In this document: piece after piece, positions 9,768-61,887 of the stretch
How positions within the stretch are numbered: position 1 is the first letter of the stretch
How the letters are laid out: every line of letters starts with the position of its first letter
IMG/VR virus record: IMGVR_UViG_3300027759_000070
Coordinates: 22,972-86,971 of that record
DNA length: 64,000 nucleotides
Source of the DNA: a virus
Direction: 5' to 3' (one strand)
Notes under the pieces: model-generated
Told to the model about the DNA's origin: nothing
Databases searched by the model: none
Seen by the model: only the letters and a program-made list of their open reading frames with translations
Position numbers and translations under genes: made by a program

Positions 9768-10919
9768 TTAAAGTCCAGAAAGAAATATTAATTTTGTATT
9801 AATTGAATTGGTGTCTTTCCAACCAACTTCGTTTAATACTGCTAAGTTTATTTCTGAAGACTGAGTTAAATGTGGTAATGATACATGTATTGCGTTCTTA
9901 CTTAAAATTGTATAATTTATTTTTGGGATTATAAATCCACTAACATTTGGATAATAAGTGTATCCAAATCCCGAATAATTGGTATACAAAGTCGAAGATT
10001 TACTGCTGAGTAATATATTACTTGTGTATTGTAAGTTTTTCCCTATTATCGTAAGAGATAAAGGAAAATCCTTCGGTTGTATTATGACTTCGGTTCCTGA
10101 TAATTCTATCATTCTTCCAGAAGAATTTAAATACAAATTAGTTAAATATGGTGCTCCAGAAATAGACACAGTTTCATTTTCGTTTAATAATCCCTTTGCA
10201 GAATCATACACATAATTTTCTGACGATAAACTATCAGTAAAAGAATCGAATAATAATTTGCTAGAAACTCTAAAGTTAGAATCTACAAAATAAATGTTTT
10301 TCGCATAGTCCGAATCAACACTAGGAAATAACCAACCTTTAATTGTAAATGATGTAGTCGCTATGAATCTTGGTTTATCTGCTGATGTTACATCAATTGG
10401 GTATTCTGTACTAATAGTTCCATCCCATAATACTTCTGATCTAATTTCATTTAATGATTCTATTCCAAATGCTGTCGGAATTTTCCAACATATTATAATA
10501 TATGGATTAGAATAAGGAATAAAATTCGACAGTATCTGATCCATGTCACTCTGATAATTTGTTAATATATTAACAGCAACTGTCAAATTTACAGGGACAG
10601 GCATTCTTACATGGGTAGTAAGTTTACCGTAACCGTTATTTTTTACTGGCTGGTAAAAACCATCAATTTTATTGAAAACTCTGGTTTCATCCCTTGCTAT
10701 TGAAGTAATGTTTACGGCTATAACAGGAACTGTGATATTCTGAGCTTTATTAACTATATCATGTATCACCCTTTCTTTGGGTGCATGAACATATCTAACT
10801 CGTATTTGTTCTTTGGCTTCTCTGTTCTTATTATGTCTAGTAATAAGAACATCATCCATCGCAGCAATAAATTGCGTCAATAAATCATGAATTTCAAAAT
10901 GGAATCCATTGTTTTGCAT
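9768..10919 (-). CDS. gp15: Tail terminator/sheath stabiliser (gp15-like) with C-terminal extension
   Basis: YAPKER-like YVHAPKER, MPVPVNL, DMDQIL..FIPY.NPY, FTIKGWLF. Confidence 0.8.
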   Translation of the reverse strand: MQNNGFHFEIHDLLTQFIAAMDDVLITRHNKNREAKEQIRVRYVHAPKERVIHDIVNKAQNITVPVIAVNITSIARDETRVFNKIDGFYQPVKNNGYGKLTTHVRMPVPVNLTVAVNILTNYQSDMDQILSNFIPYSNPYIIICWKIPTAFGIESLNEIRSEVLWDGTISTEYPIDVTSADKPRFIATTSFTIKGWLFPSVDSDYAKNIYFVDSNFRVSSKLLFDSFTDSLSSENYVYDSAKGLLNENETVSISGAPYLTNLYLNSSGRMIELSGTEVIIQPKDFPLSLTIIGKNLQYTSNILLSSKSSTLYTNYSGFGYTYYPNVSGFIIPKINYTILSKNAIHVSLPHLTQSSEINLAVLNEVGWKDTNSINTKLIFLSGL

Positions 10920-13339
10920 TAGGATTTAAGACGGAATGAATTGATATATATTCCTTCACACAATATATCAAATGTAGATTTTCTACTAAATGATTCCTTT
11001 TTAACTGTCTTGGAAGATGCTAAAGAATCAAGAACTACTTTAAGTTCTGGTGAACCAGATAATTGTCTCCTATATTTGTTACAAAGTTTTCTTGCTATGA
11101 CTGCTTGTTTATTAGAAAGTTTATGTTGATTCGCTAGACTATGACCGATAATACCATCAATTTTATTGAATCCGACATTATTCTTTTCTTGTGCAAAATC
11201 TTCATCCATTCCAGCTATTATTTGTAGGAGTTTTAAGCAAGCTTCTTTAACTTCATCGGTTATTGTAGGATCTTGTGCTTCTTTTCTGATTTGTTCTGGT
11301 GTTACATTTTTTGTAACATACTCACCAGCAATATCAACAGGATGATCTACAAATACTATATCTTCCCCAGCAGTTTCTTTCTTGTCTAAAATCTTGTCAT
11401 TAACACCAGCTTTATTAATGAAACTTCTAATCATTATTTCATCGATTGAATCTTTTGCTGCCAAATAATGTATTTCTACGTTTTTGGTCTGCCCAATACG
11501 ATGTGCCCTATCTTCTGCTTGAATAATCGTGGTTGGTCGCCAATCAAATTCACCGAATATAACAGTAGTAGCTGCTGTCAAGGTTAATCCAGTGGCACTT
11601 GCTAATATAGAACCAATAAATACTTTGACATCTGGATTAGTTTGAAATTCATCTACTATGTCCGTAACTTCATCCGCCGCTGCTCCACCAATTAACATTA
11701 CCGATCTTTTTCCAAAATGTTGTTGTAGTCTCTGAACCACTTCTCTGTGGTGAGCAAATATGATAATTTTTTCTCCAGATTTTAATACTTTTTCAGCATG
11801 TTCTATAATATGTGGCAATTTTTGTATACCCAAAAGTGATCTTTGCTGAGAAATAGTTTCAAAGAATATTCTTTGTTTTTGTTCTAATTCTTGTGTATAC
11901 TTATTAAACTGAGAAAGATCATCATTTGATTTTGCTAATTCAATATAAGCAACTAGCTCTTCGGTTTCTTTTCTTAATTCATCTCTTATTTGAAGTTCTT
12001 CTGCTTTTTCTTTTGCTGAAGATTCAAACGTAATAATACTCCTTGTTTTTGGTGGAATATCTTTCAGAACATCCTTTTTCAATCTACGAACCATGATGGT
12101 AGATCTCAAAAGATCCTGTAATGCTTCCATGTCCGAATCTTTTGGAGTATTGTATTCTAATCCATATCGACCTTGTGTTGCACCACAATACTTTGTGATA
12201 AACGTGAAATAGTTATTCCATCTATTTGGATCTAGATAATGTAATAATGCAAACAAATCTTGTGGCTTATTGTCGATGGGTGTACCAGTCAAAAACAAAG
12301 CTCTTTTGGTTTGAACAGGTTTTTTAACATCTTTTGGGTTCATTTTTCTGGCATCGTATGGATGTGTCCCCAAAATTGCCATAGATCTTTTTGCTGTTTT
12401 GTTCTTCATGTAATGAGCTTCATCAGCAATAACCAAATCAAATTCGCCCATTTCATCAATTTGTTTCTTCAAATCATATATTATATCATAATTGACTATG
12501 ATAATTCCTCCCATTTTTGCAGGGAATGCCTTTTTATTATCTACAACGGTTATCTTTCTTTTCGAGATTAACCATTTTTCTAATTCGTTTTTCCAATTGT
12601 ATTTTAATTTCTGAGGACACAAAATTAAAACATTTTGAATATCACTATCATATACATTTATGTAACCGATAGCTTGAATAGTTTTTCCTAAACCCATTTC
12701 ATCTGCAATGAATACTTTGTCTTTACCCATCGCAAATCTAATACCTGATTCTTGGAATGGTAGATATTTTAATCCTTCTGGTGCGGGTATGGGAGAATCA
12801 GGAGAAGCACCTTCGGGTTTTGGTTCTTCACCAGTTGATCTACTAATTTCTTTAGCATCAACATAAGGTTGTAGTTCCTTTTTTAATTCTACATCAGAAT
12901 CTGGAACATATTCAATCAATCTTGCTGCTGTAGCAGCATCACCTGTCCACCAATATTTTCTATCCCTATCAAAAATAAATTTTTTTGATTTGACCATGTC
13001 TTTTACCGCTTCATCATATTTAAATGATATAATATATCTATCTCCATTTTTACTTAAAATGGGTTTAGAAGCGGCTGATGCTACTGTTGATGTAGGTGTA
13101 ACATCAGTATTTCCAGATTTATTCAAATATTCTTTATAGCAATCTTCGTGCATTACTATTTTTGGACTTGAGTTCCAGAAAATTCTCTGCCCAACATTAA
13201 TTTTTACTCCGTGTTTGCAATTTTCATAACCACATCTACCGGGAAATTTACTCGACATAAACCCCTCTTCTAACATACTTAGAAGAGATTCAGATATAGG
13301 TATGAATTTTTTTCTTTTTTTAGACTGTAAACTAGACAT
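10919..13339 (-). CDS. SNF2-family (SMARCAL1/HARP-like) helicase
   Basis: ADEMGLGKT, DEAH, LTGTP..N, RRLK, GLTLTAA, QAEDRAHRIGQ; N-terminal Cys/His motif. Confidence 0.93.
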   Translation of the reverse strand: MSSLQSKKRKKFIPISESLLSMLEEGFMSSKFPGRCGYENCKHGVKINVGQRIFWNSSPKIVMHEDCYKEYLNKSGNTDVTPTSTVASAASKPILSKNGDRYIISFKYDEAVKDMVKSKKFIFDRDRKYWWTGDAATAARLIEYVPDSDVELKKELQPYVDAKEISRSTGEEPKPEGASPDSPIPAPEGLKYLPFQESGIRFAMGKDKVFIADEMGLGKTIQAIGYINVYDSDIQNVLILCPQKLKYNWKNELEKWLISKRKITVVDNKKAFPAKMGGIIIVNYDIIYDLKKQIDEMGEFDLVIADEAHYMKNKTAKRSMAILGTHPYDARKMNPKDVKKPVQTKRALFLTGTPIDNKPQDLFALLHYLDPNRWNNYFTFITKYCGATQGRYGLEYNTPKDSDMEALQDLLRSTIMVRRLKKDVLKDIPPKTRSIITFESSAKEKAEELQIRDELRKETEELVAYIELAKSNDDLSQFNKYTQELEQKQRIFFETISQQRSLLGIQKLPHIIEHAEKVLKSGEKIIIFAHHREVVQRLQQHFGKRSVMLIGGAAADEVTDIVDEFQTNPDVKVFIGSILASATGLTLTAATTVIFGEFDWRPTTIIQAEDRAHRIGQTKNVEIHYLAAKDSIDEIMIRSFINKAGVNDKILDKKETAGEDIVFVDHPVDIAGEYVTKNVTPEQIRKEAQDPTITDEVKEACLKLLQIIAGMDEDFAQEKNNVGFNKIDGIIGHSLANQHKLSNKQAVIARKLCNKYRRQLSGSPELKVVLDSLASSKTVKKESFSRKSTFDILCEGIYINSFRLKS

Positions 13340-13354
13340 ACTTATATTTACCGC

Positions 13355-14983
13355 CTATACAAATCTTTTTAAGAAATATTTTGGTAGTTTTTTAGCATTC
13401 CTAATAACAGCATCAGATATAGATCCATCTAGAATGTAAGTTATACATTTATCCTGTTTTGTTCTTACTCCTCTACCACAGGCTTGAATTAGATGATTCA
13501 GCATCTGATTAACATACCAATTTGGATCATCTTTGAATAACTTTTTGATTCTCTCATCATTTAATGGCATGTATGCAGCCTTTGCTACAATTTGAAACCT
13601 AGCCAAATCTTCTTTCAAATCTACACCATACGTCATTGACGGACTGACCAACACTGTTGGTCCTGTGGATTCTATATGTTGCCTAATAATTTGCTCGTTG
13701 TTTGCACCATCTAATCTGAACAAAAATCTAGGATCATCAATATTATCTTTCAAATATTGAGTAATTTCCATAGTATGAGTATGGATTACACCCTTTACAT
13801 TTTTATGAAAATCACAAATCTTTAAAATATTATCCTTTAATACTGGAAGTTTCTCTTTAAGATTTTTGTAATTTAGTTTATGTGCTGTGGAAACATGAAT
13901 AGGAGCATTTTTAGGATCAAAAGTAGAATCTACTTCAATATATTGATACTTTTCAATTCCCAATGTTTTGGCAAAATTAGCAGGATCAATAATCGTAGCA
14001 GACATTAACAAAATCTTTTTTCCATACTTAAAGATATGCTTTGCCAGATTATCTACCCTTAATGGTTTAAGGGTCACTCCGTCCAAGTTATGTTCAATTA
14101 CATACTCACATTCTTCCCATGTTTCAATTGTTGTTTGAATTTGGGCAAGAAGATTTGTGAACAGTTTAAATCTCTGTACATCAGAATCTGCTGTTGATGT
14201 GTTTCTCTTCTTTTTTCCTAGAATCTTTTTAAGATCTTCGATTTCGTTTCCTAGTTTTAAAGTCAATTCTCCCAACCAGATTCTGAATTTTCCATAATTC
14301 TCCACAGGAACATCTGTAGGTTTATATCCCAAACGCTTTAAAATTTTGTAATTCAAACTTCTGCTGAAGCGTTTAACTAATTCAGACTCCATTTCAGAAG
14401 CTTCATCGCATACAATATATTGCCTATGACGAACATGTTCAGGAAGAGATAAAAACATGCTGTAATTAAGCACTCCAAACTTATTAGTCAACATATCTCT
14501 CCTAGAATTATAATAATCACAGGTAGAATTCAAAATACATGATTCTTTGATCCTTGGATTAAAGTGACAGGGAGCAAAATCTACATTATAACTAGGATCT
14601 ACCCTACAAAGATAATTACTTTTACCTTTCAATGAACACGAATCTTTAAATAATTCAGTGTATTGGTCTTGTAGACTTTTTGTAATAGTCAGAGCAAATG
14701 CTCCAAATGGAGGTTGGTCTTCACATTCTTCAGCCTTTGCAAAGTCTCCAAATTGGTCAACCCTAAATGCATTGTAGGATTCAACTAAACTTTGAAATTT
14801 AGCAGGGACTTCATCCGAATAATTGGATAAAGTTTTAGAGAGGAACGATTTTCCACTTCCAGTCGGAGCACAACAAATTACGAAATCGTAGCCAGAGTTA
14901 AAGGCTAAATCAATTTTATCAAGAAGTTCTACTTGTTGTGTTTGTGGAACGAACCCATTTGGGAAATGATCTAATAGAGGCAT
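13355..14983 (-). CDS. DinG/XPD-family helicase
   Basis: APTGSGKS, DEAS, MSAT, GVD, QACGRGVR; four-Cys segment after LKGKSNY. Confidence 0.9.
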   Translation of the reverse strand: MPLLDHFPNGFVPQTQQVELLDKIDLAFNSGYDFVICCAPTGSGKSFLSKTLSNYSDEVPAKFQSLVESYNAFRVDQFGDFAKAEECEDQPPFGAFALTITKSLQDQYTELFKDSCSLKGKSNYLCRVDPSYNVDFAPCHFNPRIKESCILNSTCDYYNSRRDMLTNKFGVLNYSMFLSLPEHVRHRQYIVCDEASEMESELVKRFSRSLNYKILKRLGYKPTDVPVENYGKFRIWLGELTLKLGNEIEDLKKILGKKKRNTSTADSDVQRFKLFTNLLAQIQTTIETWEECEYVIEHNLDGVTLKPLRVDNLAKHIFKYGKKILLMSATIIDPANFAKTLGIEKYQYIEVDSTFDPKNAPIHVSTAHKLNYKNLKEKLPVLKDNILKICDFHKNVKGVIHTHTMEITQYLKDNIDDPRFLFRLDGANNEQIIRQHIESTGPTVLVSPSMTYGVDLKEDLARFQIVAKAAYMPLNDERIKKLFKDDPNWYVNQMLNHLIQACGRGVRTKQDKCITYILDGSISDAVIRNAKKLPKYFLKRFV

Positions 14984-16255: not shown

Positions 16256-16633
16256 TTAATTATGTTGGTTTTTCAGAAAGTCAACATATTGTTTAATTTC
16301 TCTTTCTGATAATTCAAAATTTTTTGCTAAAATTTTAGTATCAGCATTTTCTTGAATTTTTTCTTCTTTGTTTTTCTTTAAATAACTAATTCTTTTTTTC
16401 TTTACTTTTGGTAAAATATTTAATAAGAATTCGTACTGTTCCTGTTTCGTGGAAAACGTCTTTCCATAGACATTTGTCGTTTGATTAAGTATCTCAGAAA
16501 TGTCGGGAGAATACATGCTACACCAGCGAGCAACCATATAATAATTGAACTGTGTTTCTCCTTCATTTATCGTATTTAGTTTCTTCTTATTGAATAAGAC
16601 AGAATCTATGAAATTAAATATTGTATCTTCCAT
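16256..16633 (-). CDS. gp62: Clamp loader small subunit (gp62-like)
   Basis: FNFIDSV..KK, YMVARWCSM, QYEFLLNILPK, FELSEREIKQY. Confidence 0.7.
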   Translation of the reverse strand: MEDTIFNFIDSVLFNKKKLNTINEGETQFNYYMVARWCSMYSPDISEILNQTTNVYGKTFSTKQEQYEFLLNILPKVKKKRISYLKKNKEEKIQENADTKILAKNFELSEREIKQYVDFLKNQHN

Positions 16634-17625
16634 TATTTTTCTAACTGTTCTTTAATCCACCAGTATACACTACTCAATCCCTTTTGTAAAGGGTAATTTG
16701 GCTTCCAGTTTAACTTCTTGAAAATCAACTCATTGTCGGAATTTCTGCCGCGAACACCAAGGGGTCCACTGATATGCTTTTTAACTAAATTTTTACTTTC
16801 CATCGAAGCCGCAATATCAACAAGTTGATTTATGGTAACCATCTCGTCCGAACCGATATTTACTGGACCAGTAAAATCAGATTCCATTAGTCTTCTTACT
16901 CCTTCAATACATTCGTCAATATACAGAAATGATCTGGTCTGTTTCCCATCACCCCATATTTCGATTTCTCCTCCATCTTTTGCCATTAATACTTTTCTGC
17001 AAATAGCTGCTGGTGCCTTTTCTTTTCCACCGTTCCAAGTTCCCATAGGACCAAAAATATTATGGAAGCGAGCAATACGGACATTCATTCCAAAATTTCT
17101 TGCATATGCCAAATAAAGTCTTTCGCTGAAAAGCTTTTCCCATCCATATTCACTATCTGGTGCAGCAGGATATGCAGACTCTTCTGAGCACTTTGGATTA
17201 TTCGGATCTTCTTGGTTGTATGCTGGGTACATACAGGCACTGCTCGAATAGAACACTTTCTTTACATTAAATTGTTTACAGAGTTCAGCGATGTTCAAAT
17301 TAATTTGAGCCGAATTATGCATCAAAACAGCATCATTATCACCACTAAAGATGTATCCAGCCCCACCCATGTCTGCTGCTAATTGATATACTTCATCAAA
17401 TGCGTTTTCTTTTTCATCCAAACTGTGTTGACCGGGTGCCATCATTAGCAATGAACATTTATTATAATCCGTTAAATCCGCAATCACAAAGTCATCCGCA
17501 GATGTTTTCGAATATTCTGGATACTTTAAATCCGCAGCACGAACCCAATATCCTTCAGACTTTAAACGATTGACCAAATGATTTCCGATAAATCCCCCTG
17601 CTCCTAGTACTAATGCTTTTTTCAT
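16633..17625 (-). CDS. GDP-mannose 3,5-epimerase-like NAD-dependent epimerase
   Basis: GAGGFIG, LAADMGGAGYI, SSACMYP, YGWEK, RFHNIFGP, GKEKAPAAICRK, GVRGRNSDN. Confidence 0.92.
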   Translation of the reverse strand: MKKALVLGAGGFIGNHLVNRLKSEGYWVRAADLKYPEYSKTSADDFVIADLTDYNKCSLLMMAPGQHSLDEKENAFDEVYQLAADMGGAGYIFSGDNDAVLMHNSAQINLNIAELCKQFNVKKVFYSSSACMYPAYNQEDPNNPKCSEESAYPAAPDSEYGWEKLFSERLYLAYARNFGMNVRIARFHNIFGPMGTWNGGKEKAPAAICRKVLMAKDGGEIEIWGDGKQTRSFLYIDECIEGVRRLMESDFTGPVNIGSDEMVTINQLVDIAASMESKNLVKKHISGPLGVRGRNSDNELIFKKLNWKPNYPLQKGLSSVYWWIKEQLEK

Positions 17626-20320: not shown

Positions 20321-21015
20321 ATTGTACCTCTAATATCTTTATTAATCCCGTATTCCTGTAGTAATGGATTTAATTCGTCTGGATATTCTGATGTATTCCA
20401 TTTACCTTTGACCAAAGCTGTTGCTATATACGGATAAACGTCCGAATCATAATGATTCTGTCCTCTTTTTGATTCGTTGTCATAATGATATAGTCCTTTT
20501 AAATTTAGCTCTATGCATTTTTGTACATAAGTTTCGTTCTCAAACCATTTCGAAGCCTTTACCTCTTTATATAGTTTTATAAAATCTGATGTTCTCCATA
20601 TAGTAGGTTGCATCGAAAATATGTTTTGATTATCAGACTCAATCTCATACAAAGTATTTGAAAGCTGAATCTTATTCAAAGCTCCAGACTTTATCAACCT
20701 GATAAATGAATATTCTGGATTTTCTTTTAAAAATTCTTTATACTCATTCAACTTATCTTCGTTTACCTTATTATACAAAACAAAATCTTCTTGTAGATAT
20801 ATAAAAAATTCTGGGTTTATGTCTTCTAAAGTTTGAACCCATGTTTGCCAATAAGGTTGAGAATTTTTGTAAATATAAATGTTTTTATATTTTTTATCAT
20901 TATGGGGAACATCAGATAATAGATATAATCGGTATGAACAAAATTTTTTGTTTTGTTCATAAAACATATCCCATACATCAGACGTATTACTATTGGTATA
21001 ACATACTTGTATCAT
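20317..21015 (-). CDS. Putative glycosyltransferase
   Basis: YLQEDFVLY, QPTIWR, KGKW; ATG at 21015 overlaps upstream TGA (ATGA). Confidence 0.55.
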   Translation of the reverse strand: MIQVCYTNSNTSDVWDMFYEQNKKFCSYRLYLLSDVPHNDKKYKNIYIYKNSQPYWQTWVQTLEDINPEFFIYLQEDFVLYNKVNEDKLNEYKEFLKENPEYSFIRLIKSGALNKIQLSNTLYEIESDNQNIFSMQPTIWRTSDFIKLYKEVKASKWFENETYVQKCIELNLKGLYHYDNESKRGQNHYDSDVYPYIATALVKGKWNTSEYPDELNPLLQEYGINKDIRGTI

Positions 21016-21431
21016 AAATAATCTACACAAACTCCGTAACAGTTGTAATTTTTACTTTTCCAATCTTTATCAAAATCTACTATAATTGATCTATCAACAA
21101 CATCTTTATTAGGATATGTCCATATATATCCAGATGATGTTAATGTACAATCATCTTCTTGATGCCAAAAACAATTTTTAATGTTATATTTCAACATGTA
21201 ATGCAATGCATCTAAATTCTTTGCGTGGCACCACAACCCATACTTTTGAAGGAATTCGTGATTAACAATATATGTTGGTTTGTCATGTCCCAAAATAATA
21301 AGTCCATCTTGAAACCAAACATCAATTTCTACTTCAATGTTTTTATCAAGCAATGAACTGATGTGATTTGGGTTATTTTCTAAATATTCGTTAGTACCAC
21401 TAACATTTCCTCTATGAGATATTATCAACAT
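21012..21431 (-). CDS. Short glycerophosphodiester phosphodiesterase-like protein
   Basis: IISHRGN, ENNP, VEIDVW, LGHD, WCHAKN, GVC.D. Confidence 0.75.
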   Translation of the reverse strand: MLIISHRGNVSGTNEYLENNPNHISSLLDKNIEVEIDVWFQDGLIILGHDKPTYIVNHEFLQKYGLWCHAKNLDALHYMLKYNIKNCFWHQEDDCTLTSSGYIWTYPNKDVVDRSIIVDFDKDWKSKNYNCYGVCVDYL

Positions 21432-22059
21432 AATCTTTATTGACTGCTAATATGTCTCCTTCTCCATATGGATGGGGGCATGGAATGAATTCAACTTTAA
21501 AATTATTTTGTGTTAAAAATTCTTCCAGATCTGTTTTTAATATATGACCCTCATAATAAGGAGAAACCGATGCTTCACAATGGATGAATTTTACATTTTT
21601 TAGGAAATCCCCCATACCTTTCAAAGCCAAAAGCTCGACACCCTGCGTATCCATCCACAATACATCAACAGATTCTATATTGTTTTCTATTAACCATTCA
21701 TCTAATCTTACACAATCTACTGATATCTTTTTACAGTCTTGTGTACTGGCAAAAGGAACATCTATTGGTTTTAATAATGATGAGGCACCGATATTTCCTA
21801 AAGTCAAATAAAAATCTAATTGTCCCTTTACGTCACCTACAGCAAATTGATACACATAAACATTTGGACATGTTTTTGATTTTTTTTCACATATATCAAA
21901 CTGACTTGGATTCGGCTCAAATGCATGTATGGTCGAAGTTGGAAAAGTTTTAGAGAATTCTATGCTTTGATCTAAATCCCTAGATCCAACATCCAATATT
22001 ATTTTTGGATTTATTCCCCCATGAGAATTTATAAATGATATGAAGTTATCTATTAGCAT
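21412..22059 (-). CDS. FkbM family methyltransferase
   Basis: LDVGS, HAFEPNP, ASSLL, RLDEW, MDTQGVELLALKG. Confidence 0.9.
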   Translation of the reverse strand: MLIDNFISFINSHGGINPKIILDVGSRDLDQSIEFSKTFPTSTIHAFEPNPSQFDICEKKSKTCPNVYVYQFAVGDVKGQLDFYLTLGNIGASSLLKPIDVPFASTQDCKKISVDCVRLDEWLIENNIESVDVLWMDTQGVELLALKGMGDFLKNVKFIHCEASVSPYYEGHILKTDLEEFLTQNNFKVEFIPCPHPYGEGDILAVNKDYVDNIS

Positions 22060-23243
22060 TTAATTACACCCCATTTTTCTATAGCTTGATGATATTCATC
22101 ACCATACTCTTTATCTATGCTCTGTCTCATAGATTTTGCTCCAGCTAATGTTCCATTTGGATGTCCATGAATACCACCACCAACATTAGCCATATAATCA
22201 ACACCTAATCGGCTATTAACCATTTCTGTCAGCCCAGCATTGAATCCACAGCTTATAGCTGGCATTACATTTAATTCCGTAAGAATCTTACAAGAATCAA
22301 TTACTTCCTGTTCGTCCCACTTATAATACCCTCCAATCATACCAGCATGTATGAAATCCACGCCACTTAATCCTGCAATCTTACAAATTACTCTCCAATC
22401 AATATGGAATGCATGGGATTTGTTTGTAAAAATTTTGTCTCCACTTTTTTGGAAGTGAATGAAAATCGGCAAGTCCAATTCTCTAATTGATCTGTACACA
22501 CCTAACCCACACCAAAAATTAACATGAACAGAATTCCCCCCTAAAGAATGTACTAGTTTTACTCTTTCCAAAATCTTGTCTGGGTCACAATGAATTGATA
22601 CCGAATAAATTACATTCTTATCTTTTAAATAATCCATTATCAAAGGGACACGTTCTTCAAGAGGACACAAGTCAAACTCAGACATAATTTCGTCCTCCTT
22701 AATAAAGTTGACACCACCATCAACTAATTCTTTCACCATTTCTAATAAAACTTGGGGTGTTACACCAATTTTAGGTTTAACTATTGCTCCTAATACTGGT
22801 TTATCGTATGAATTTACAAACTTCCTAATTCCAGATATTCCATACTTTGGCCCTTTGAATTCAGATAAAATAGAATCAGGAAATTCTATGTCTAATACAT
22901 GACATTGGTCAACTACATCAATATCCAGTTGCCCACCCATTAAATTTACTAGCAAATGAGATATTCCGTTGTTTTTAAAGTTGATGTTTACGGTTGGGAA
23001 CGCAATATCGACAATACCTTCAACTCTAGATTCTAGATTTTTTTTATCATCCAAAATGATACAAGAATATTTTTCAAACAATTCTTCGGTTTCCCATTTG
23101 TTTCGTACTTTAGGATTTCCTACAGACTGTCCAATCGCCAATGCCCATGCGGCATCATTTAAATTTGTTGTTGACTTTATGTAGTACTTAACAATCAAAT
23201 AATCATCTTTGTTTATATCTTCTAATTTTTTATAGATGTTCAT
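22053..23243 (-). CDS. RuBisCO-like protein (form IV RLP)
   Basis: F.GPKYGISGIR, GAIVKPKIG, GGVNFIKEDE, GVDFIHAG, GGGIHGHP.G..AGA. Confidence 0.93.
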   Translation of the reverse strand: MNIYKKLEDINKDDYLIVKYYIKSTTNLNDAAWALAIGQSVGNPKVRNKWETEELFEKYSCIILDDKKNLESRVEGIVDIAFPTVNINFKNNGISHLLVNLMGGQLDIDVVDQCHVLDIEFPDSILSEFKGPKYGISGIRKFVNSYDKPVLGAIVKPKIGVTPQVLLEMVKELVDGGVNFIKEDEIMSEFDLCPLEERVPLIMDYLKDKNVIYSVSIHCDPDKILERVKLVHSLGGNSVHVNFWCGLGVYRSIRELDLPIFIHFQKSGDKIFTNKSHAFHIDWRVICKIAGLSGVDFIHAGMIGGYYKWDEQEVIDSCKILTELNVMPAISCGFNAGLTEMVNSRLGVDYMANVGGGIHGHPNGTLAGAKSMRQSIDKEYGDEYHQAIEKWGVIKC

Positions 23244-23279
23244 TGAACTTATTTAAAATTTAATTTAGTAAAATCAAGA

Positions 23280-23600
23280 TTAAATTAAAATTTTATCCCC
23301 AACAACACTAGGAGTTTTAACTACACACAAATAACAGTCTTCTAGGAAGACTGGATCAGCTATTTCATTTGGAAAAATCACAAATACATCCCCAGAATTT
23401 AATTCTTGACCTTGTATAGTCATTTTTCCAGAGATTAAAAAATTAATTTCTGTTAATTTTTCGTGATAATGTGCTTCCCAAAATTCTCCTTTTTTATGAA
23501 CTTTATACCCTACTTCAAAATCTTGGGTTTTGTAACAACTAGGTTCAAAATTTCCCACAAACCATCCACCCTTATAATCTTCGATTTTTGTTATTTTCAT
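23280..23600 (-). CDS. Cupin-domain protein
   Basis: GWFVGNFEP, HYH...EINFLISGKM, GDVFVI.P.E. Confidence 0.8.
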   Translation of the reverse strand: MKITKIEDYKGGWFVGNFEPSCYKTQDFEVGYKVHKKGEFWEAHYHEKLTEINFLISGKMTIQGQELNSGDVFVIFPNEIADPVFLEDCYLCVVKTPSVVGDKILI

Positions 23601-24355
23601 AAAATAAACTTACACTTTTCTAATAAATTCTTTTTATATAAATGGTATTTATATATGTAATGATGATTTAAAATACATAAGATATTACCAATTACTAGAT
23701 TAGTAGATCTTTCATTTATTGGTTTTAATATCTCATTACTAAATTCGTTATGTGTATTTGATATAGGCCAACCTTCAACAAAAAGTTTTTTAAAATAATC
23801 ACTATCATCCATCAAGTATTCAAAAAGATCATCATATAATTCACAAATAAGTTTTATATTTTCATAAGAAGAATAAAACCAATGTTCAGTCATACCAGAA
23901 TTTAATTGATTCCATGTCTTACAGTATACTAAATTTGTGTCAATATTTTCTTCAAAATTTAAAACACAAAGATGATCCTGTGGAGCATTATATATTCCGT
24001 GCCAATTGAATACATCAAACCTACAAATTATTACACAATCATATTTGTCTTGTATAAAATCAAAACATTGTTTTCTAGAATAAGTGTAACTAAACAGTTT
24101 ATATAATGATGTTCCTCCAGATTCTAGTTTTTCTGGATTAAACATTTTTATTTCTTCGCTGAAATCTTTTTGTACTTCAAATTTATGATTTACTGGTTTA
24201 TACTTTTTTAGTATATCATTTATTATTTCAGTATTAGTCTCCCATGCGTGTATGTACACATCCACATCATATTTTGATAATATATGATCGTTTAATATCT
24301 CAAATGATCTAGAATAATCATTGGTCAGACCACATATACATAACGCAATTTTCAT
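23597..24355 (-). CDS. Glycan-locus hypothetical protein (possible glycosyltransferase)
   Basis: MKIALCICG, DVYIHAW, YDCVIICRFD pattern typical of polysaccharide-locus proteins. Confidence 0.55.
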   Translation of the reverse strand: MKIALCICGLTNDYSRSFEILNDHILSKYDVDVYIHAWETNTEIINDILKKYKPVNHKFEVQKDFSEEIKMFNPEKLESGGTSLYKLFSYTYSRKQCFDFIQDKYDCVIICRFDVFNWHGIYNAPQDHLCVLNFEENIDTNLVYCKTWNQLNSGMTEHWFYSSYENIKLICELYDDLFEYLMDDSDYFKKLFVEGWPISNTHNEFSNEILKPINERSTNLVIGNILCILNHHYIYKYHLYKKNLLEKCKFIL

Positions 24356-25078
24356 TTATAACAAAATGTATTTATTTAAATCTTCGGGGGTTCCTATAGG
24401 GAAATGCAAATTAAAATAATAGGGATGAATTTTTTTATTATTTTTAATCAAATAATTATAAGTAGGTGCTACATAAAATTCATTATTATATCTTTCATTA
24501 TTTTCTATCATAATTTTTGCAGAATCTACGAAAAGTGATCCGTGTTTCCAAAAGTGGAACCCATTAGTAGCTATGTTGCTTATAACAACTTTTTCTTTAA
24601 CATCGACTATTTCAAAGTTATCATTTAGTTTGACATAACTATTTTTATTTGAAACTGAATTAAACACACCTAAAATTCCATCACTATTATTGCGATTGGA
24701 ATATTTTATGATCGTATTTATATTTAAATCTTCTGTTATTTGATCACAGTTTGTTATTACCAAAGGAGTTTCATTATCAATTAAGTGCTGAGATAACAAG
24801 CAAGTACAAGCAGATCCTTCTGTTAGATAATCTATTGATATAATTTCAAAATTTACATTCAATCTTTTGCATATGCTTTGTAAATTATGAATTGGTAATT
24901 CCTTTCTAGTTATAAAAATAAACCTAGTATTTTTGAGTTGATTATTATTCTCTATAACACGTTCTATCATTGGCTTCCCATTTACATCTATAAATGGTTT
25001 AAATTCATTTGGATGTGTTTTTTGGAACCTTGATCCTAAACCAGCCATAGGTATCAATATGTTTAAATTTTCATTCAT
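24356..25078 (-). CDS. Sugar-phosphate nucleotidyltransferase
   Basis: NILIPMAGLGSRF, KPFIDVNGKPMI, TEGSACT, NCDQ, EK..IS, EFYVAPTYN, GTPEDL. Confidence 0.88.
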   Translation of the reverse strand: MNENLNILIPMAGLGSRFQKTHPNEFKPFIDVNGKPMIERVIENNNQLKNTRFIFITRKELPIHNLQSICKRLNVNFEIISIDYLTEGSACTCLLSQHLIDNETPLVITNCDQITEDLNINTIIKYSNRNNSDGILGVFNSVSNKNSYVKLNDNFEIVDVKEKVVISNIATNGFHFWKHGSLFVDSAKIMIENNERYNNEFYVAPTYNYLIKNNKKIHPYYFNLHFPIGTPEDLNKYILL

Positions 25079-58614: not shown

Positions 58615-61600
58615 ATGGCAGGAAATGCACGTTTTCATGATAAACTTCACAGAAAAAATCACCATACATTACCAACTGTAGGATATCCCGACAGTGCTAA
58701 TGATCCGATTGCTTCTGCTTCGGAGCCATTTCAGGGAGATTTTGTAGTTAATGGTAGATTAAGCGCAAGTTCTGGGATAAGCATTCTTTCTGCACACATT
58801 GAACAGGATCTAGATTGCGAAAATGCATATGTAAGAGACACCACATATACTAATTTTATATCTGGATATGGAACAGAAACGATTATAAGTGACGGAGCAT
58901 TAACTGGATATGGGGATAAAACATTAACAATGGACTACAGAAAAGCTGTTTATGTTAAAACTCCAGTATTTAATATATTGGGTAATGTATCTGCTACTTC
59001 TGCTTTATATGTTGACGAGAATGCAACGATTAAAAATAAATTGGTAGCAGATAATATTGGCGTTGCGATGAGTTCTCCTAATGAGAAATTAACTATTAAT
59101 GGGAATGTATCTTTTTATGGGACATCTGCACATTATATTAAATCTCCTTACGGAAGTGATAACGGATTGATGGTATTTGGGGGTTCAAATACTGGGGCTA
59201 ATTCATATCTGGTCCACTTATTTTATAGTTTAAGTACACGGACTGGTGGAAGAATTGATGCAGACGGATCACACGATATCATACTACCATATCAACAAAG
59301 AAACGTAGTATACGGATCAGAAAATGTAACAAGATACTTTTTAGTTAGCGGTACAACGGCAAGCCCATCAGCAGTAGCATCAGATTCTGTTGTTGGTGGA
59401 ATTAGAGCATTCGCATATTCTGGAGGTAATAAATTTAATACTTATGGTGGTGGTGGAAATGCATCAATTGATTTAAAAACTTCTGGAGAACAATCATTAA
59501 CAAATGGTGGTGGATATATTATATTTAATACCATGCCTATGAATAGTGGTAACACAGTAGGAGCATCAGAAAGAATGCGTATTACTTCGGAAGGCAAAGT
59601 GGGAATTGGTACTACAACACCTACTGGTAGTGCTACTCCATTATCTGCTGAAGGTAGATCATTGCATGTATATAATAATACAAATGATAACACATCTACG
59701 AATTCTGATACTGTAGTTGTTGCTGAAAGTGTTAATAGAAATGCTTATTTCTTAGCATCTGTTGGTGTAGATGGTGGATTATCAATAAAAAGGAGTTCTG
59801 ATGCAAAACATTTAGGAAGAATAATAATGAATCAAACAAATGACACCATTTTTCAAGCTGGAGATGGTAGTTATGGATTGAACGAAACCATGCGTATTCT
59901 TTCTGGTGGAAATGTTGGGATTGGTACAATCACCCCAAATCAAAAATTAACTGTAAATGGTGTTATAAGTTCTAATAATTACATATATTCTCAAGATATT
60001 TGGCTTAATAGAGGAAACACTGATCGTGAAGGTGGACAAATTAATTTCAATAGATCGTATGACAATGCCCTTGCGTGGGCTATAGATACATATACTGATG
60101 TTATCGGTTCTTTGAGTAGTAGATTGAGGTTTATAGATACTAATTCTAACACAGAAAGAGTAACAATATTAAGTAGTGGAAATGTTGGTATAGGAACTCA
60201 TAATCCTACAGAGAGATTACATGTAATTGGAAATGTACTAATATCAGGAAATTTATCGGCATTGGGAGACACAACACAAATAGATACAGCTATAGTAACA
60301 ACCAGTGCAATGGTTATTGATATGCTGGGAAGTGCCAATGCATTAAGAATAACCCAAAGAGGAACAGGAAATGCCTTGTTGGTTGAAGATGAATCATCCG
60401 ATAGTACTGCTTTTGTAATTAATAGTGCTGGTGATGTCGGTATAGGTCACAACACACCAAGCAGTAAATTACATGTTGTTGGGTCTATTACAATACCATA
60501 TGATAATTATTTAAATTTTTCAGAAAATGGTAATGGTCACACTTCAATAAAAAGAAATGGTGCGGATAACGGAATGGAGTTTTTTACTAATTCTAATTCC
60601 AGAATGTTTATTTCTGATGCGGGAAATGTTGGGATAGGAACTAAGACTCAATTACACTCTCCAAATGATAAATTAGAAGTTGCTGGTAATGTGGGTGCAT
60701 ATGGTTATAGAGCAAAACAGCAAAAACCGAGCGGAAATCCGTTAACTGATTCGTCTCCTAATGGTTATGCTTTTGGTGATGACGGAGATACTGGAATGTT
60801 TTCACCACTTAACACAGGAGATACTGAAAATGAATCAGTAGGTAAAATTGGATGGTATTGTAATAATATTGAAACCGCAAGAACATTTATAAATTCTCAA
60901 CCAATATTCACAATAGGTGGATTGTCGGCAGCTTCTGAAACATATGGAAGAACTACATTAGTAGTGGGAGACGGTAATAATGGAGGTTTAATGGAATTGA
61001 GAGATGGTGCTGGCGGTCATAGCATCATATATCGTGATGCATTTACAAATTCTCTTTGGTTAGAAGGCAGAACCAATAATTCAAATATAGTATTATCAAC
61101 CATTGGTACAGGATCAATAACAATGGCGGTAACTGGTTCTTCGACTGGATTGTTTTTAGGTTCTAATGGTAATATAGGAATGGGAACAAACGCCCCAGAA
61201 TCCAAATTACATGTTAATGGTGGATTGACTTTAGATGCATGGAATCCAAGCGCACCAGCAAGTGTAGAATCTACTAATTTATCTTCTGTTTATATAAAAT
61301 TTAATTCTGGTGGTGCGGCTACAGATTGGGCATATTTAAGACAGATTGGAAATTCCGACGAATTATCTCTTGCATTAGATTTGCACGATAACGAAAATGT
61401 AACATCAGGTGGACAATCATTTTGTATAAGAAACATTAAGAGCACAGCTACTCCAGATATCATATATACTAATTTTATAGTAACTATGTCGGGCGGTGTT
61501 GGTGCTCCTTATTCTCTATCTGGAACAGGAAATCGTGCAGTTTATTCTGATGGAAATGGGATATTAACAAATACAGCATCTGATAGTACTTTAAAGAAAG

Positions 61601-61887
61601 ATGTATCAATAATTTCTCAAGGATTAAACGAAGTTTTACAACTAAATCCTGTATCATTTAATTGGAAAAATACTCAAAAATATGGAGAACAAAGAGAAAT
61701 AGGCTTTCTTGCACAAGAGGTACAACCGATTGTTCCAGAAGTAATAGGATCTAATAGTGATGGAACATTATCGTTGGATTATTCGAAAATGATTGCAGTT
61801 TTAACTAAAGCTATTCAAGAACTTAACACCAAAGTTGATGCTCAGGCATTAGAAATTGCAAAATTAAAAAATAATCAATCCAAATAA
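58615..61887 (+). CDS. Long tail fibre with C-terminal intramolecular chaperone (peptidase S74)
   Basis: Repeated R.TS.GNVGIGT..P..KLHV.G units; SD.TLKK, LNPVSFNW, GFLAQEV, LDYS, AIQEL. Confidence 0.9.
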   Translation: MAGNARFHDKLHRKNHHTLPTVGYPDSANDPIASASEPFQGDFVVNGRLSASSGISILSAHIEQDLDCENAYVRDTTYTNFISGYGTETIISDGALTGYGDKTLTMDYRKAVYVKTPVFNILGNVSATSALYVDENATIKNKLVADNIGVAMSSPNEKLTINGNVSFYGTSAHYIKSPYGSDNGLMVFGGSNTGANSYLVHLFYSLSTRTGGRIDADGSHDIILPYQQRNVVYGSENVTRYFLVSGTTASPSAVASDSVVGGIRAFAYSGGNKFNTYGGGGNASIDLKTSGEQSLTNGGGYIIFNTMPMNSGNTVGASERMRITSEGKVGIGTTTPTGSATPLSAEGRSLHVYNNTNDNTSTNSDTVVVAESVNRNAYFLASVGVDGGLSIKRSSDAKHLGRIIMNQTNDTIFQAGDGSYGLNETMRILSGGNVGIGTITPNQKLTVNGVISSNNYIYSQDIWLNRGNTDREGGQINFNRSYDNALAWAIDTYTDVIGSLSSRLRFIDTNSNTERVTILSSGNVGIGTHNPTERLHVIGNVLISGNLSALGDTTQIDTAIVTTSAMVIDMLGSANALRITQRGTGNALLVEDESSDSTAFVINSAGDVGIGHNTPSSKLHVVGSITIPYDNYLNFSENGNGHTSIKRNGADNGMEFFTNSNSRMFISDAGNVGIGTKTQLHSPNDKLEVAGNVGAYGYRAKQQKPSGNPLTDSSPNGYAFGDDGDTGMFSPLNTGDTENESVGKIGWYCNNIETARTFINSQPIFTIGGLSAASETYGRTTLVVGDGNNGGLMELRDGAGGHSIIYRDAFTNSLWLEGRTNNSNIVLSTIGTGSITMAVTGSSTGLFLGSNGNIGMGTNAPESKLHVNGGLTLDAWNPSAPASVESTNLSSVYIKFNSGGAATDWAYLRQIGNSDELSLALDLHDNENVTSGGQSFCIRNIKSTATPDIIYTNFIVTMSGGVGAPYSLSGTGNRAVYSDGNGILTNTASDSTLKKDVSIISQGLNEVLQLNPVSFNWKNTQKYGEQREIGFLAQEVQPIVPEVIGSNSDGTLSLDYSKMIAVLTKAIQELNTKVDAQALEIAKLKNNQSK

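What the first reader, a model, noticed from the sequence alone, without database searches (positions are those of the whole stretch)
21012..25078. Phage-encoded RuBisCO-like protein in a nucleotidyltransferase / cupin / phosphodiesterase module
Seen: a 396 aa RuBisCO-fold protein keeping the equivalents of K175/K177 (VKPK), the carbamylated Lys and Mg ligands (KEDE for KDDE), H294, H327 and the GGG phosphate loop. By eye it lacks E60 (AIGQSVG), N123, R295 (HFQK) and loop-6 K334 (GGYY). It is co-oriented with a cupin, a sugar-phosphate nucleotidyltransferase and a short GDPD-like protein inside a glycan operon. Established: characterised form IV RLPs do enolase, isomerase or decarboxylase/transcarboxylase chemistry in methionine salvage or sugar-acid/apiose catabolism, not CO2 fixation. 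Inference: this RLP acts biosynthetically, making an unusual (branched or shortened) sugar/polyol phosphate that is NDP-activated for a phage-made glycan. This is the best candidate for an undescribed pathway here.
Basis: partly seen in the sequence, partly recalled or inferred. Interest (0 to 1): 0.88.

Follow-up and report, generated by a model that had tools for sequence, protein, structure and literature searches.

The report
Phage RuBisCO-like enzyme in sugar-activation cassette
A freshwater T4-like phage carries an intact RuBisCO relative that cannot fix CO2 and is tied, and elsewhere fused, to a sugar-activating enzyme, so it probably helps build an unusual activated sugar unit, a job never tested for this enzyme family.

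Summary
Window 22053-23243(-) encodes a 396-aa RuBisCO large-subunit homologue in a minus-strand glycan island of a T4-like phage. It keeps K175, K177, K201, D203, E204 and the glycine phosphate loop. It has E60G, N123G, H294Q, H298D and K334Y.

It is not MtnW-like, by curated score cut-offs, residue signature and tree. The neighbourhood is strongly conserved: of 80 viral loci, 79 have the nucleotidyltransferase (NT), 69 the mini-GDPD and 55 the cupin. In 48 cellular loci (SAR11, CPR, DPANN, Legionella, Nonomuraea, Azospirillum) the NT is present in 43. Natural RLP-NT and RLP-NT-cupin fusions exist.

New here:
- The NT is the hub. NT plus mini-GDPD occurs without the RLP in 59 of 79 NT-anchored loci.
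- In cyanophage S-SKS1 the same NT is fused to DHBP synthase (RibB), a ribulose-5-phosphate enzyme.

Best reading: the RLP enolises a pentulose-phosphate-type ketose to make a non-standard NDP-activated glycan unit. The substrate is unknown.

Phage RLPs were already published (Jaffe 2019), with function unknown. This scan also found the same cassette earlier on other DNA.

The parts
22053..23243 (-). RuBisCO-like protein (396 aa), phage/CPR 'form IV-like' clade. The Mg/carbamate triad and both Lys are kept. E60G, N123G, H294Q, H298D, K334Y.
   Evidence: Pfam; NCBIfam scores all below cut-off; alignment to 8dht; clade signature and tree
24356..25078 (-). Sugar-phosphate nucleotidyltransferase (240 aa) of a distinct 4EVW-like family; the hub of the cassette
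   Evidence: Pfam PF00483 1.8e-8; profile against PDB 4evw 2.2e-35, next best about 1e-9; present in 79 of 80 viral and 43 of 48 cellular RLP loci
23280..23600 (-). Small metal-binding cupin (106 aa), an optional member of the cassette
   Evidence: H44, H46, E51 invariant; profile hits cupins in PDB; in 55 of 80 viral loci; fused to the NT in L040, L066, L078 and to RLP-NT in P0121 and P0122
21012..21431 (-). Miniature GDPD-like phosphodiesterase (139 aa) with a complete catalytic motif set
   Evidence: Invariant H6 R7 E18 N19 E35 D37 H49; GDPD profile hit; AF2 pLDDT 95.4; Foldseek GDPDs; in 69 of 80 RLP loci and 64 of 79 NT-anchored loci
23597..24355 (-). 252-aa protein of family 'c5', with a GT-A-like glycosyltransferase fold; candidate transferase for the NT product
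   Evidence: No Pfam hit; family present in 62 of 207 loci; AF2 pLDDT 80.1; Foldseek GT8/GT6 at E about 3e-4, TMq 0.33-0.42; also directly upstream of NT-RibB in S-SKS1
21412..22059 (-). FkbM-family methyltransferase inserted between the RLP and the mini-GDPD (lineage-specific)
   Evidence: Pfam 3.5e-19, TIGR01444 2.8e-23; absent at this position in the closest relative L001, where NT-cupin-RLP-GDPD are contiguous
16633..17625 (-). NAD-dependent epimerase/dehydratase (SDR) in the same island; a possible reductase or epimerase of the activated unit (inferred)
   Evidence: Pfam 2.1e-40; the SDR family is the fifth commonest neighbour, in 63 of 207 loci

Best explanation
The gene encodes an active, non-carboxylating RuBisCO-superfamily enzyme. 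It belongs to a mobile sugar-activation cassette built around one particular nucleotidyltransferase (NT).

Shown:
- The RLP keeps the enolisation machinery (carbamylatable Lys, Mg ligands, K175, K177, the glycine phosphate loop). It lacks the residues needed for carboxylation.
- It is locked to the NT by gene order in viruses, bacteria and archaea, and by natural RLP-NT and RLP-NT-cupin fusions.
- The cassette lies among glycosyltransferases and methyltransferases.

Inferred:
- The RLP binds a 2-keto-3-hydroxy sugar phosphate of the pentulose-phosphate type and abstracts the C3 proton. It then isomerises, epimerises or dehydrates the substrate.
- The NT joins the phosphate ester to a nucleotide. 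This may happen before or after the RLP step.
- The metal cupin, where present, does a further isomerisation.
- The GT-A-like neighbour (23597-24355) transfers the unit to a glycan.
- The mini-GDPD processes a phosphodiester made along the way.
- The target glycan (host surface or virion) is unknown.
For: Catalytic residues:
- The catalytic core is kept and invariant in 56 family members: K156, K158, K182, D184, E185, G333, G355, G356. There is also a 7-residue invariant N-domain loop, GQSVGNP.

Gene neighbourhood:
- An IMG/VR scan found 185 relatives, of which 80 were kept. NT is present in 79 of 80, mini-GDPD in 69 of 80, cupin in 55 of 80. No other window gene exceeds 17 of 80.
- A GTDB scan gave 48 cellular loci. 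NT is in 43, mini-GDPD in 22, cupin in 15. These include Pelagibacter, CPR, DPANN, three Legionella species, Azospirillum oleiclasticum and Nonomuraea rosea.

Fusions:
- P0121 and P0122 are RLP(1-391)-NT(396-634)-cupin(711-815).
- P0124 is RLP-NT.
- NT-cupin fusions occur in 3 loci.

Glycan context:
- GT2, GT4, WecB, two FkbM methyltransferases and an SDR lie in the window.
- LicD sits beside RLP-NT in 4 Legionellaceae loci. Weak, below-cut-off Wzy_C- and Wzz-like hits lie nearby in L123 and L122.
- The 252-aa neighbour has a GT-A-like fold.

Pentulose-phosphate lead:
- The same NT family is fused to a full DHBP synthase domain in Synechococcus phage S-SKS1 (PF00926, 5.4e-65) and in 10 related IMG/VR loci. 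DHBP synthase takes ribulose 5-phosphate through a 2,3-enediol (established knowledge, recalled).
- A free-standing RibB lies about 1 kb downstream of the RLP cassette in L034 and L038.
Against: - There is no biochemical evidence for any member.
- NT plus mini-GDPD occurs without the RLP in 59 of 79 NT-anchored viral loci. The RLP is in only 8 of 79, so it is dispensable for the core.
- Of 33 residue columns conserved at 80% or more in both RLP-associated and HAD-fused NTs, 32 carry the same residue. This argues that the NT substrate does not change when an RLP is present, which weakens 'the RLP feeds the NT'.
- The hints on donor type conflict. LicD (phospho-alcohol transfer) is seen only in 4 of 207 loci. 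The common neighbour is GT-A-like (glycosyl transfer), on weak fold scores (TMq 0.33-0.42).
- RibB and the RLP co-occur in 2 loci, so they are not simple alternatives.
- The cupin is absent from 25 of 80 viral loci.
- The phage record is only 41% complete.
Confidence: 0.55

Rival explanations
1. The RLP works after activation. The NT first makes an NDP-pentulose from a common metabolite such as ribulose or xylulose 5-phosphate. This would parallel the pneumococcal CDP-xylulose to CDP-arabinitol route (recalled, not checked here). The RLP then epimerises or isomerises the nucleotide-linked ketose. The beta-phosphate would sit in the retained glycine loop, and the nucleotide would exit through the remodelled loop 6 and N-domain.
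For: - The NT's conserved residues are the same with or without an RLP: 32 of 33 columns.
- NT plus mini-GDPD cassettes work without any dedicated supplier: 59 of 79.
- Exactly the residues that close the RuBisCO active site are replaced and then fixed: K334Y, E60G, T65N, W66P.
- The domain order in the fusions is RLP-NT-cupin.
Against: - No RuBisCO-superfamily enzyme is known to take a nucleotide-linked substrate (recalled).
- The NT tree shows RLP-associated NTs clustered apart from HAD-fused ones: 8 label changes on 197 rows against a shuffled mean of 60.5. That would also fit co-adaptation of NT and RLP, although relatives share labels in any case.
Confidence: 0.2
2. The cassette supplies a sugar donor for hypermodification of the phage's own DNA rather than for a surface or virion glycan. 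T4-like phages are known to glycosylate DNA (recalled).
For: The host genome is T4-like. Phage sugar-nucleotide modules for DNA glycosylation are known (recalled, not checked).
Against: - The same cassette sits in cellular genomes beside LicD and GT2 genes, with weak sub-cut-off Wzy_C- and Wzz-like hits.
- Sugar O-methyltransferase-type FkbM genes, GT2, GT4 and WecB surround it.
- No thymidylate-synthase/dCMP-hydroxymethylase family gene is in the 87-kb record. That record is only 41% complete, so this is weak evidence.
Confidence: 0.08
3. The RLP is an auxiliary catabolic or salvage enzyme (methionine salvage, nucleotide/pentose bisphosphate or sugar-acid breakdown), and its neighbours are coincidental.
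For: All characterised RLPs are catabolic or salvage enzymes (recalled). The best NCBIfam scores are to form III RuBisCO and MtnW models.
Against: - All curated cut-offs are missed by wide margins: form III 189 against 497, MtnW 157 against 409 and 130 against 514, OiaX 142 against 700.
- N123 is Gly here. It is Lys in the five MtnW-like rows, which form a separate starred clade.
- No salvage genes were seen among the families clustered or scanned within 6 kb of the RLP. Not every neighbour was annotated.
- The linkage and fusions are to an NT.
Confidence: 0.07

Closest known systems
'Form IV-like' RuBisCO-related proteins of phages (some Myoviridae) and Beckwithbacteria (Jaffe, Castelle, Dupont & Banfield, Mol Biol Evol 2019, PMC6389311; abstract and passages read)
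   Same: A divergent RLP on large myovirus-type contigs from IMG/VR, with relatives in Beckwithbacteria (L092, 52% identity). Key residues diverge from canonical form IV.
   Different: That paper leaves the function 'unclear'. Its main text has no occurrence of nucleotidyl, glycosyl or cupin. Its supplementary gene map could not be seen. I did not compare with their sequences directly, so identity of the clades is inferred.
MtnW/YkrW 2,3-diketo-5-methylthiopentyl-1-phosphate enolase (form IV RLP)
   Same: The same fold. K175, K201, D203 and E204 are kept. It is an enolisation-type, non-carboxylating enzyme. Best PDB RLP hit: 2oek, 4.1e-35.
   Different: It scores far below both curated cut-offs. 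The N123 column is Gly, not the Lys seen in MtnW-like rows. H294 is Gln. It falls in a separate clade. No methionine-salvage neighbours were seen.
Bifunctional GDP-mannose pyrophosphorylase / type II phosphomannose isomerase (NT domain fused to a metal cupin; recalled)
   Same: Here too, NT-cupin fusions occur (L040, L066, L078; P0121 and P0122). The cupin keeps a His-His-Glu metal motif.
   Different: The cupin here is only about 106 aa, and its Pfam score is below cut-off. The NT family is different (nearest is 4evw, uncharacterised). An RLP is added.
DHBP synthase (RibB) fused to the same NT family in Synechococcus phage S-SKS1 (SWZG_00042)
   Same: The same NT family (35% identity), next to the same c5 GT-A-like family. 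It is partnered with a Mg-dependent enzyme that enolises a pentulose phosphate (RibB chemistry recalled).
   Different: RibB has an unrelated fold. It comes with an APH-like kinase lead, a small HAD and a TAL-like gene, and has no mini-GDPD. It co-occurs with the RLP in L034 and L038.

Membership tests
RuBisCO large-subunit superfamily | N-terminal alpha/beta domain plus C-terminal TIM-barrel domain recognised by PF02788 and PF00016 | tested here: met
   PF00016 125.7 bits (cut-off 30.1). PF02788 20.9 bits (cut-off 20.7), which is marginal. 97 PDB RuBisCO/RLP sequences match at E<=1e-10.
Bona fide RuBisCO (forms I-III) | Full catalytic set: E60, N123, K175, K177, K201, D203, E204, H294, R295, H298, H327, K334 | tested here: not met
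   E60G, N123G, H294Q, R295K, H298D, K334Y. TIGR03326 189 bits against a cut-off of 497.
MtnW/YkrW enolase | Score above the NCBIfam equivalog cut-offs | tested here: not met
   NF007095 156.9 bits against 409. TIGR03332 130.3 bits against 513.6.
MtnW/YkrW enolase | Lys in the N123 column (the role as catalytic base is recalled) and clustering with MtnW-like sequences | tested here: not met
   Gly in the window and in all but one (P0136, Ser) of its 21 closest full-length representatives. The five N123K rows form a separate clade (99*).
OiaX 3-oxo-isoapionate-4-phosphate decarboxylase | Score above the NCBIfam equivalog cut-off | tested here: not met
   142.1 bits against 700.
Phage/Beckwithbacteria 'form IV-like' clade (Jaffe 2019) | Divergent RLPs on IMG/VR myovirus contigs that group with Beckwithbacteria sequences | tested here: inconclusive
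   185 IMG/VR relatives and a Beckwithbacteria MAG at 52% identity with the same cassette. The window sits in a starred set of 21-22 rows.
Glycerophosphodiester phosphodiesterase (GDPD), for the 139-aa protein | Catalytic motifs HR(G), E(N), ExD, H(D) | tested here: met
   H6 R7 E18 N19 E35 D37 H49 are invariant in 51 sequences (D50 in at least 90%) and align to 7e0v.
Glycerophosphodiester phosphodiesterase (GDPD), for the 139-aa protein | Full-length (beta/alpha)8 barrel recognised by the Pfam GDPD model | tested here: not met
   No Pfam family at E<=0.01. 139 aa against 217-295 aa for the GDPD chains matched. Foldseek TMq 0.36-0.61, TMt 0.22-0.41.
Sugar-phosphate nucleotidyltransferase (PF00483) | Score above the Pfam cut-off, plus the GxGxR...K loop and EK motif | tested here: met
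   34.7 bits against 21.2. G13 G15 R17 K27 D112 E162 K163 are invariant. Substrate specificity is not testable here.

The most novel reading that the evidence does not exclude
This RLP clade is the first RuBisCO-superfamily enzyme recruited to glycan precursor biosynthesis. It would work on a pentulose-phosphate-derived unit that is nucleotide-activated, possibly on the NDP-linked ketose itself. Together with the metal cupin it may do RibB-like skeleton-shortening chemistry. The result would be a family of unrecognised deoxy-keto or polyol phosphate decorations on the surfaces of SAR11, Legionella, CPR/DPANN cells and the phages that infect such hosts.
Probability: 0.22. Interest if true: 0.85.

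Novelty: new variant of a known kind. Interest (0 to 1): 0.68.

Why it matters
All assigned RLP functions are salvage or catabolic. A large clade spans phages, SAR11, CPR, DPANN and Legionella: 185 or more viral contigs, and about 20 clusters at 50% identity. It is hard-wired to a nucleotidyltransferase, which would give the RuBisCO fold a biosynthetic role in surface-glycan diversity. That trait decides phage-host recognition in some of the most abundant aquatic bacteria.

The question is directly testable. Cultured carriers exist (Legionella nautarum, L. drozanskii, L. maceachernii, Nonomuraea rosea, Azospirillum oleiclasticum), and natural single-chain RLP-NT-cupin fusions are available for expression.

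Tried and rejected
Searches that found nothing or failed:
I used the search for related loci instead.
- INPHARED phages hold no RLP relative by tblastn and no near-identical DNA. Only the NT has cultured-phage relatives (22 records).
- No tRNAs in the window.
- LicD, TagF-type, thymidylate-synthase-family and RibB genes are absent from the phage record. The record is 41% complete, so absence means little.

Weak or limited results:
- LicD as a general partner is rejected. It is found only in 4 Legionellaceae loci out of 207.
- 'RibB replaces the RLP' as a strict alternative is rejected. Both occur in L034 and L038.
- The HAD domain fused to most RLP-less NTs scores best as beta-phosphoglucomutase-family (100-106 bits, cut-off 153), with pyrophosphatase models also hit. 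I could not decide between mutase, phosphatase and pyrophosphatase.
- The first NT tree held only 9 RLP-less rows, because my length filter dropped the fused NTs. It was redone on the NT domain alone.
- The AU test of the RLP clade could not be run on a FastTree tree. Support values are SH-like only.
- One search was an empty script.

Sequencing runs:
- Two freshwater metagenome runs from two studies hold the stretch (0.77 and 0.56 of the sampled words). One of them may be the source sample.
- One lake metatranscriptome library holds two 151-nt contigs identical to 21025-21175 and 21398-21548. This does not show transcription.

Literature searches that found no functional study:
- 'rubisco-like' + nucleotidyltransferase + polysaccharide: 0 papers.
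- 'rubisco-like' + cytidylyltransferase: 2 unrelated papers.
- 'rubisco-like protein' + Myoviridae, 2019 onward: 0 papers.
- rubisco + 'form IV-like' + phage: 0 papers.
- 'rubisco-like' + Pelagibacter + hypervariable: none relevant in the 10 listed.
- 4-dihydroxy-2-butanone + cyanophage: 1 unrelated paper.
Supplements of Jaffe 2019 (fig.

Full report
CONTEXT. The window comes from an 87-kb viral record rated 41% complete. It encodes the T4 gp23 capsid protein, gp20 portal, gp15, a family B DNA polymerase, a RecA/UvsX-like protein and an SbcCD-like pair. GC content is about 30%. The portal is only about 32% identical to any cultured phage; the nearest are cyanomyophages. The DNA recurs in two freshwater metagenome runs. 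From about 15.0 to 29.0 kb every gene is on the minus strand, packed or overlapping. That block includes an SDR epimerase/dehydratase, methyltransferases (two of them FkbM), a UDP-GlcNAc 2-epimerase, a GT2 and a GT4. 'Phage-encoded' and 'glycan operon' are therefore sound.

THE RLP. The ORF 22053-23243(-) gives 396 aa, which matches the length of its relatives (391-400 aa). Pfam recognises both RuBisCO domains. NCBIfam's best models are form III RuBisCO (189 bits, cut-off 497), MtnW (157 against 409; 130 against 514) and OiaX (142 against 700). None is reached. I mapped residues through the alignment to form III chain 8dht and a 111-row alignment of representatives.
- Kept: K175, K177, K201, D203, E204, H327, S379, G381, G403, G404.
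- Replaced: E60G, T65N, W66P, N123G, H294Q, R295K, H298D, K334Y, G380C.

The true H294 column is Gln. The window and its 21 closest full-length representatives share the signature G-N-P-G / K-K-K-D-E / Q-(K/R) / Y / S-C-G-G-G. The two exceptions are P0136 (PLS in place of NPG, and G in place of C) and P0141 (His in the H294 column). Carboxylase-like rows read E-T-W-N ... H-R-H-H-K, and MtnW-like rows have Lys at N123. On a FastTree tree the window lies in a starred (99-100) set of 21-22 rows. Nineteen of these meet the strict G/Q/Y rule. The five MtnW-like rows form their own clade. Within 56 family members the Mg/carbamate triad, both lysines, the glycine loop and a GQSVGNP loop in the N-domain are invariant. 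This argues for a working active site that enolises but does not carboxylate.

THE NEIGHBOURS.
- The 240-aa NT passes PF00483. Its family profile hits one uncharacterised PDB entry, 4evw, at 2.2e-35. All characterised NTs (GMPP, HddC, RmlA, GlmU) score about 1e-9 or worse.
- The 106-aa cupin is below Pfam's cut-off. It has an invariant His-His-Glu motif and hits cupins by profile.
- The 139-aa protein carries the GDPD catalytic motifs in an invariant form. Its profile matches GDPD 7e0v at 9.2e-5. It folds with pLDDT 95.4 into a cut-down barrel whose best Foldseek matches are GDPDs (14 of the top 15 rows, best E 6.7e-4).
- Two further genes lie inside the finding: an FkbM methyltransferase, and a 252-aa protein whose model (pLDDT 80) weakly matches GT-A glycosyltransferases of the GT8/GT6 type.
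- In the closest relative (L001; RLP 91% identical) NT, cupin, RLP and GDPD are contiguous. These two extra genes are therefore lineage-specific inserts.

CONSERVATION.
- IMG/VR holds 185 RLP relatives. In the 80 kept, tblastn finds the NT in 79, the mini-GDPD in 69 and the cupin in 55. No other window gene exceeds 17.
- Two layouts recur: NT-cupin-RLP-GDPD and GDPD-NT-RLP.
- GTDB species genomes give 48 loci. These include Pelagibacter (among them a complete chromosome), Patescibacteria including Beckwithbacteria and Saccharibacteria, DPANN archaea, Verrucomicrobia, Legionella nautarum, L. drozanskii and L. maceachernii, Azospirillum oleiclasticum and Nonomuraea rosea.
- In those 48 loci the NT is present in 43, the mini-GDPD in 22 and the cupin in 15.
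- De novo clustering of all ORFs within 6 kb of the RLP in the 128 loci ranks RLP (123 loci), NT (121), mini-GDPD (87), cupin (64) and SDR (42) first.

FUSIONS.
- Three viral loci fuse NT and cupin.
- Two metagenomic proteins are RLP-NT-cupin in one chain.
- The representative of the nearest 50% cluster is an RLP-NT fusion.
- The mini-GDPD is fused to a c5-like domain in L015. In 14 loci it is fused to a further unassigned C-terminal domain.

WHAT IS NEW RELATIVE TO A PLAIN 'RLP + NT' READING.
1. The NT is the hub. Of 79 new loci, only 8 have the RLP and 64 have the mini-GDPD, 59 of those without an RLP. In 68 of the 79, a beta-phosphoglucomutase-like HAD domain is present, fused to the N-terminus of the NT. 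In the RLP-anchored set it is present in 8 of 80.
2. On an NT-domain tree of 197 rows the 'RLP nearby' label needs 8 changes, against a shuffled mean of 60.5. Yet of 33 residue columns conserved at 80% or more in both groups, 32 are identical. The NT substrate is probably similar whichever partner is present.
3. In the cultured cyanophage S-SKS1 the same NT (35% identity) is fused to a complete DHBP synthase domain (5.4e-65). The fusion recurs in 10 IMG/VR loci. It is preceded by the same c5 GT-A-like family. It is followed by a protein the ESM Atlas places among APH-type kinases often fused to NTs (a lead only), then a small HAD and a TAL-like gene. The same RibB/kinase/HAD/TAL block lies just downstream of the RLP cassette in L034 and L038.
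4. Four Legionellaceae loci place a LicD-family gene beside RLP-NT.

MECHANISM.
- Shown: an intact enolisation-type active site, loss of the carboxylation residues, and obligate linkage or fusion to a sugar-phosphate NT inside glycan islands.
- From established knowledge (recalled): RuBisCO-family enzymes abstract the C3 proton of a Mg-bound 2-keto-3-hydroxy phosphate ester. RibB starts from the same kind of 2,3-enediol of ribulose 5-phosphate. Ketose 5-phosphates can be cytidylylated and then reduced to CDP-alditols.
- Inferred: the RLP isomerises, epimerises or dehydrates a pentulose-phosphate-type unit that is nucleotide-activated by the NT and passed to a glycan by the GT-A-like or other transferases. 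The mini-GDPD handles a phosphodiester.
- Not resolved: whether the RLP acts before or after the NT. Point 2 above favours 'after' or 'same substrate class'. The fusion order and the RibB analogy are neutral.
- Confidence: about 0.55 for the general statement, and about 0.2-0.3 for the pentulose-specific version.

KNOWN OR NEW.
- Jaffe et al. 2019 reported about 80 phage RLPs from IMG/VR, some on Myoviridae, grouping with Beckwithbacteria. They left the function open. Their main text never mentions nucleotidyltransferases, glycosyl genes or cupins.
- The GOS paper had already noted unplaced RuBisCO homologues.
- My literature searches found no functional study.
- The gene is thus a new member of a published clade. 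The cassette logic and a biosynthetic role would be a new variant of RLP function.
- Earlier agents of this scan reached the same general reading on other genomes. I re-derived the conservation before seeing those notes. I tested two of their leads here: fusion to the NT, and other sugar-phosphate enzymes in the RLP's place.

Noticed in passing
L210:6004-7428 (Synechococcus phage S-SKS1, SWZG_00042): A single 475-aa protein joins the cassette's NT family to a full DHBP synthase (RibB) domain. The record names it only as DHBP synthase. The neighbouring 'phosphoheptose isomerase' (SWZG_00040) scores as a small HAD phosphatase in Pfam, not as a SIS isomerase.
   Followed up: partly
P0230 (583 aa, representative protein library): An N-terminal TIR domain (PF13676, 3.3e-13) is fused to a complete RuBisCO-like protein. 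This architecture suggests a defence or signalling role for another RLP lineage.
   Followed up: no
P0169, P0182 (726 and 742 aa): IF-2B-family (ribose-1,5-bisphosphate isomerase/MtnA-like) domains are fused to carboxylase-type RuBisCO. These look like single-chain versions of the archaeal nucleotide-salvage pair.
   Followed up: no
L131-L209 (NT-anchored viral loci); cultured cyanophages S-CAM9, S-PRM1, B3, B23: A fusion of a beta-phosphoglucomutase-like HAD to the NT (about 455 aa), usually with the mini-GDPD next to it, is far commoner in phages than the RLP version. It is present in isolated cyanophages and has no assigned product.
   Followed up: partly
window 61893-63059 (+) and 58615-61887 (+): A 388-aa protein made of four immunoglobulin I-set/Ig_3 domains (3.9e-39) follows a 1090-aa fibre protein with an endosialidase-chaperone (Peptidase_S74) C-terminus. 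These are probably host-recognition genes.
   Followed up: no
window 10919-13339 (-) and 13355-14983 (-): An 806-aa SNF2-family helicase and a DEAD/Helicase_C_2 protein sit between the tail-sheath stabiliser gene and the glycan island of this T4-like phage.
   Followed up: no
window 21025-21175 and 21398-21548: Two 151-nt contigs from a lake metatranscriptome library are identical to the mini-GDPD gene and its junction with the FkbM gene. DNA carry-over cannot be excluded.
   Followed up: partly
L102, L104, L106, L110, L115 (SAR11 single-cell genomes): A second SAR11 RLP lineage (about 42% identical to the window) is flanked by two NT paralogues, in the order GDPD-NT-RLP-NT, followed by a c5-family gene.
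   Followed up: no
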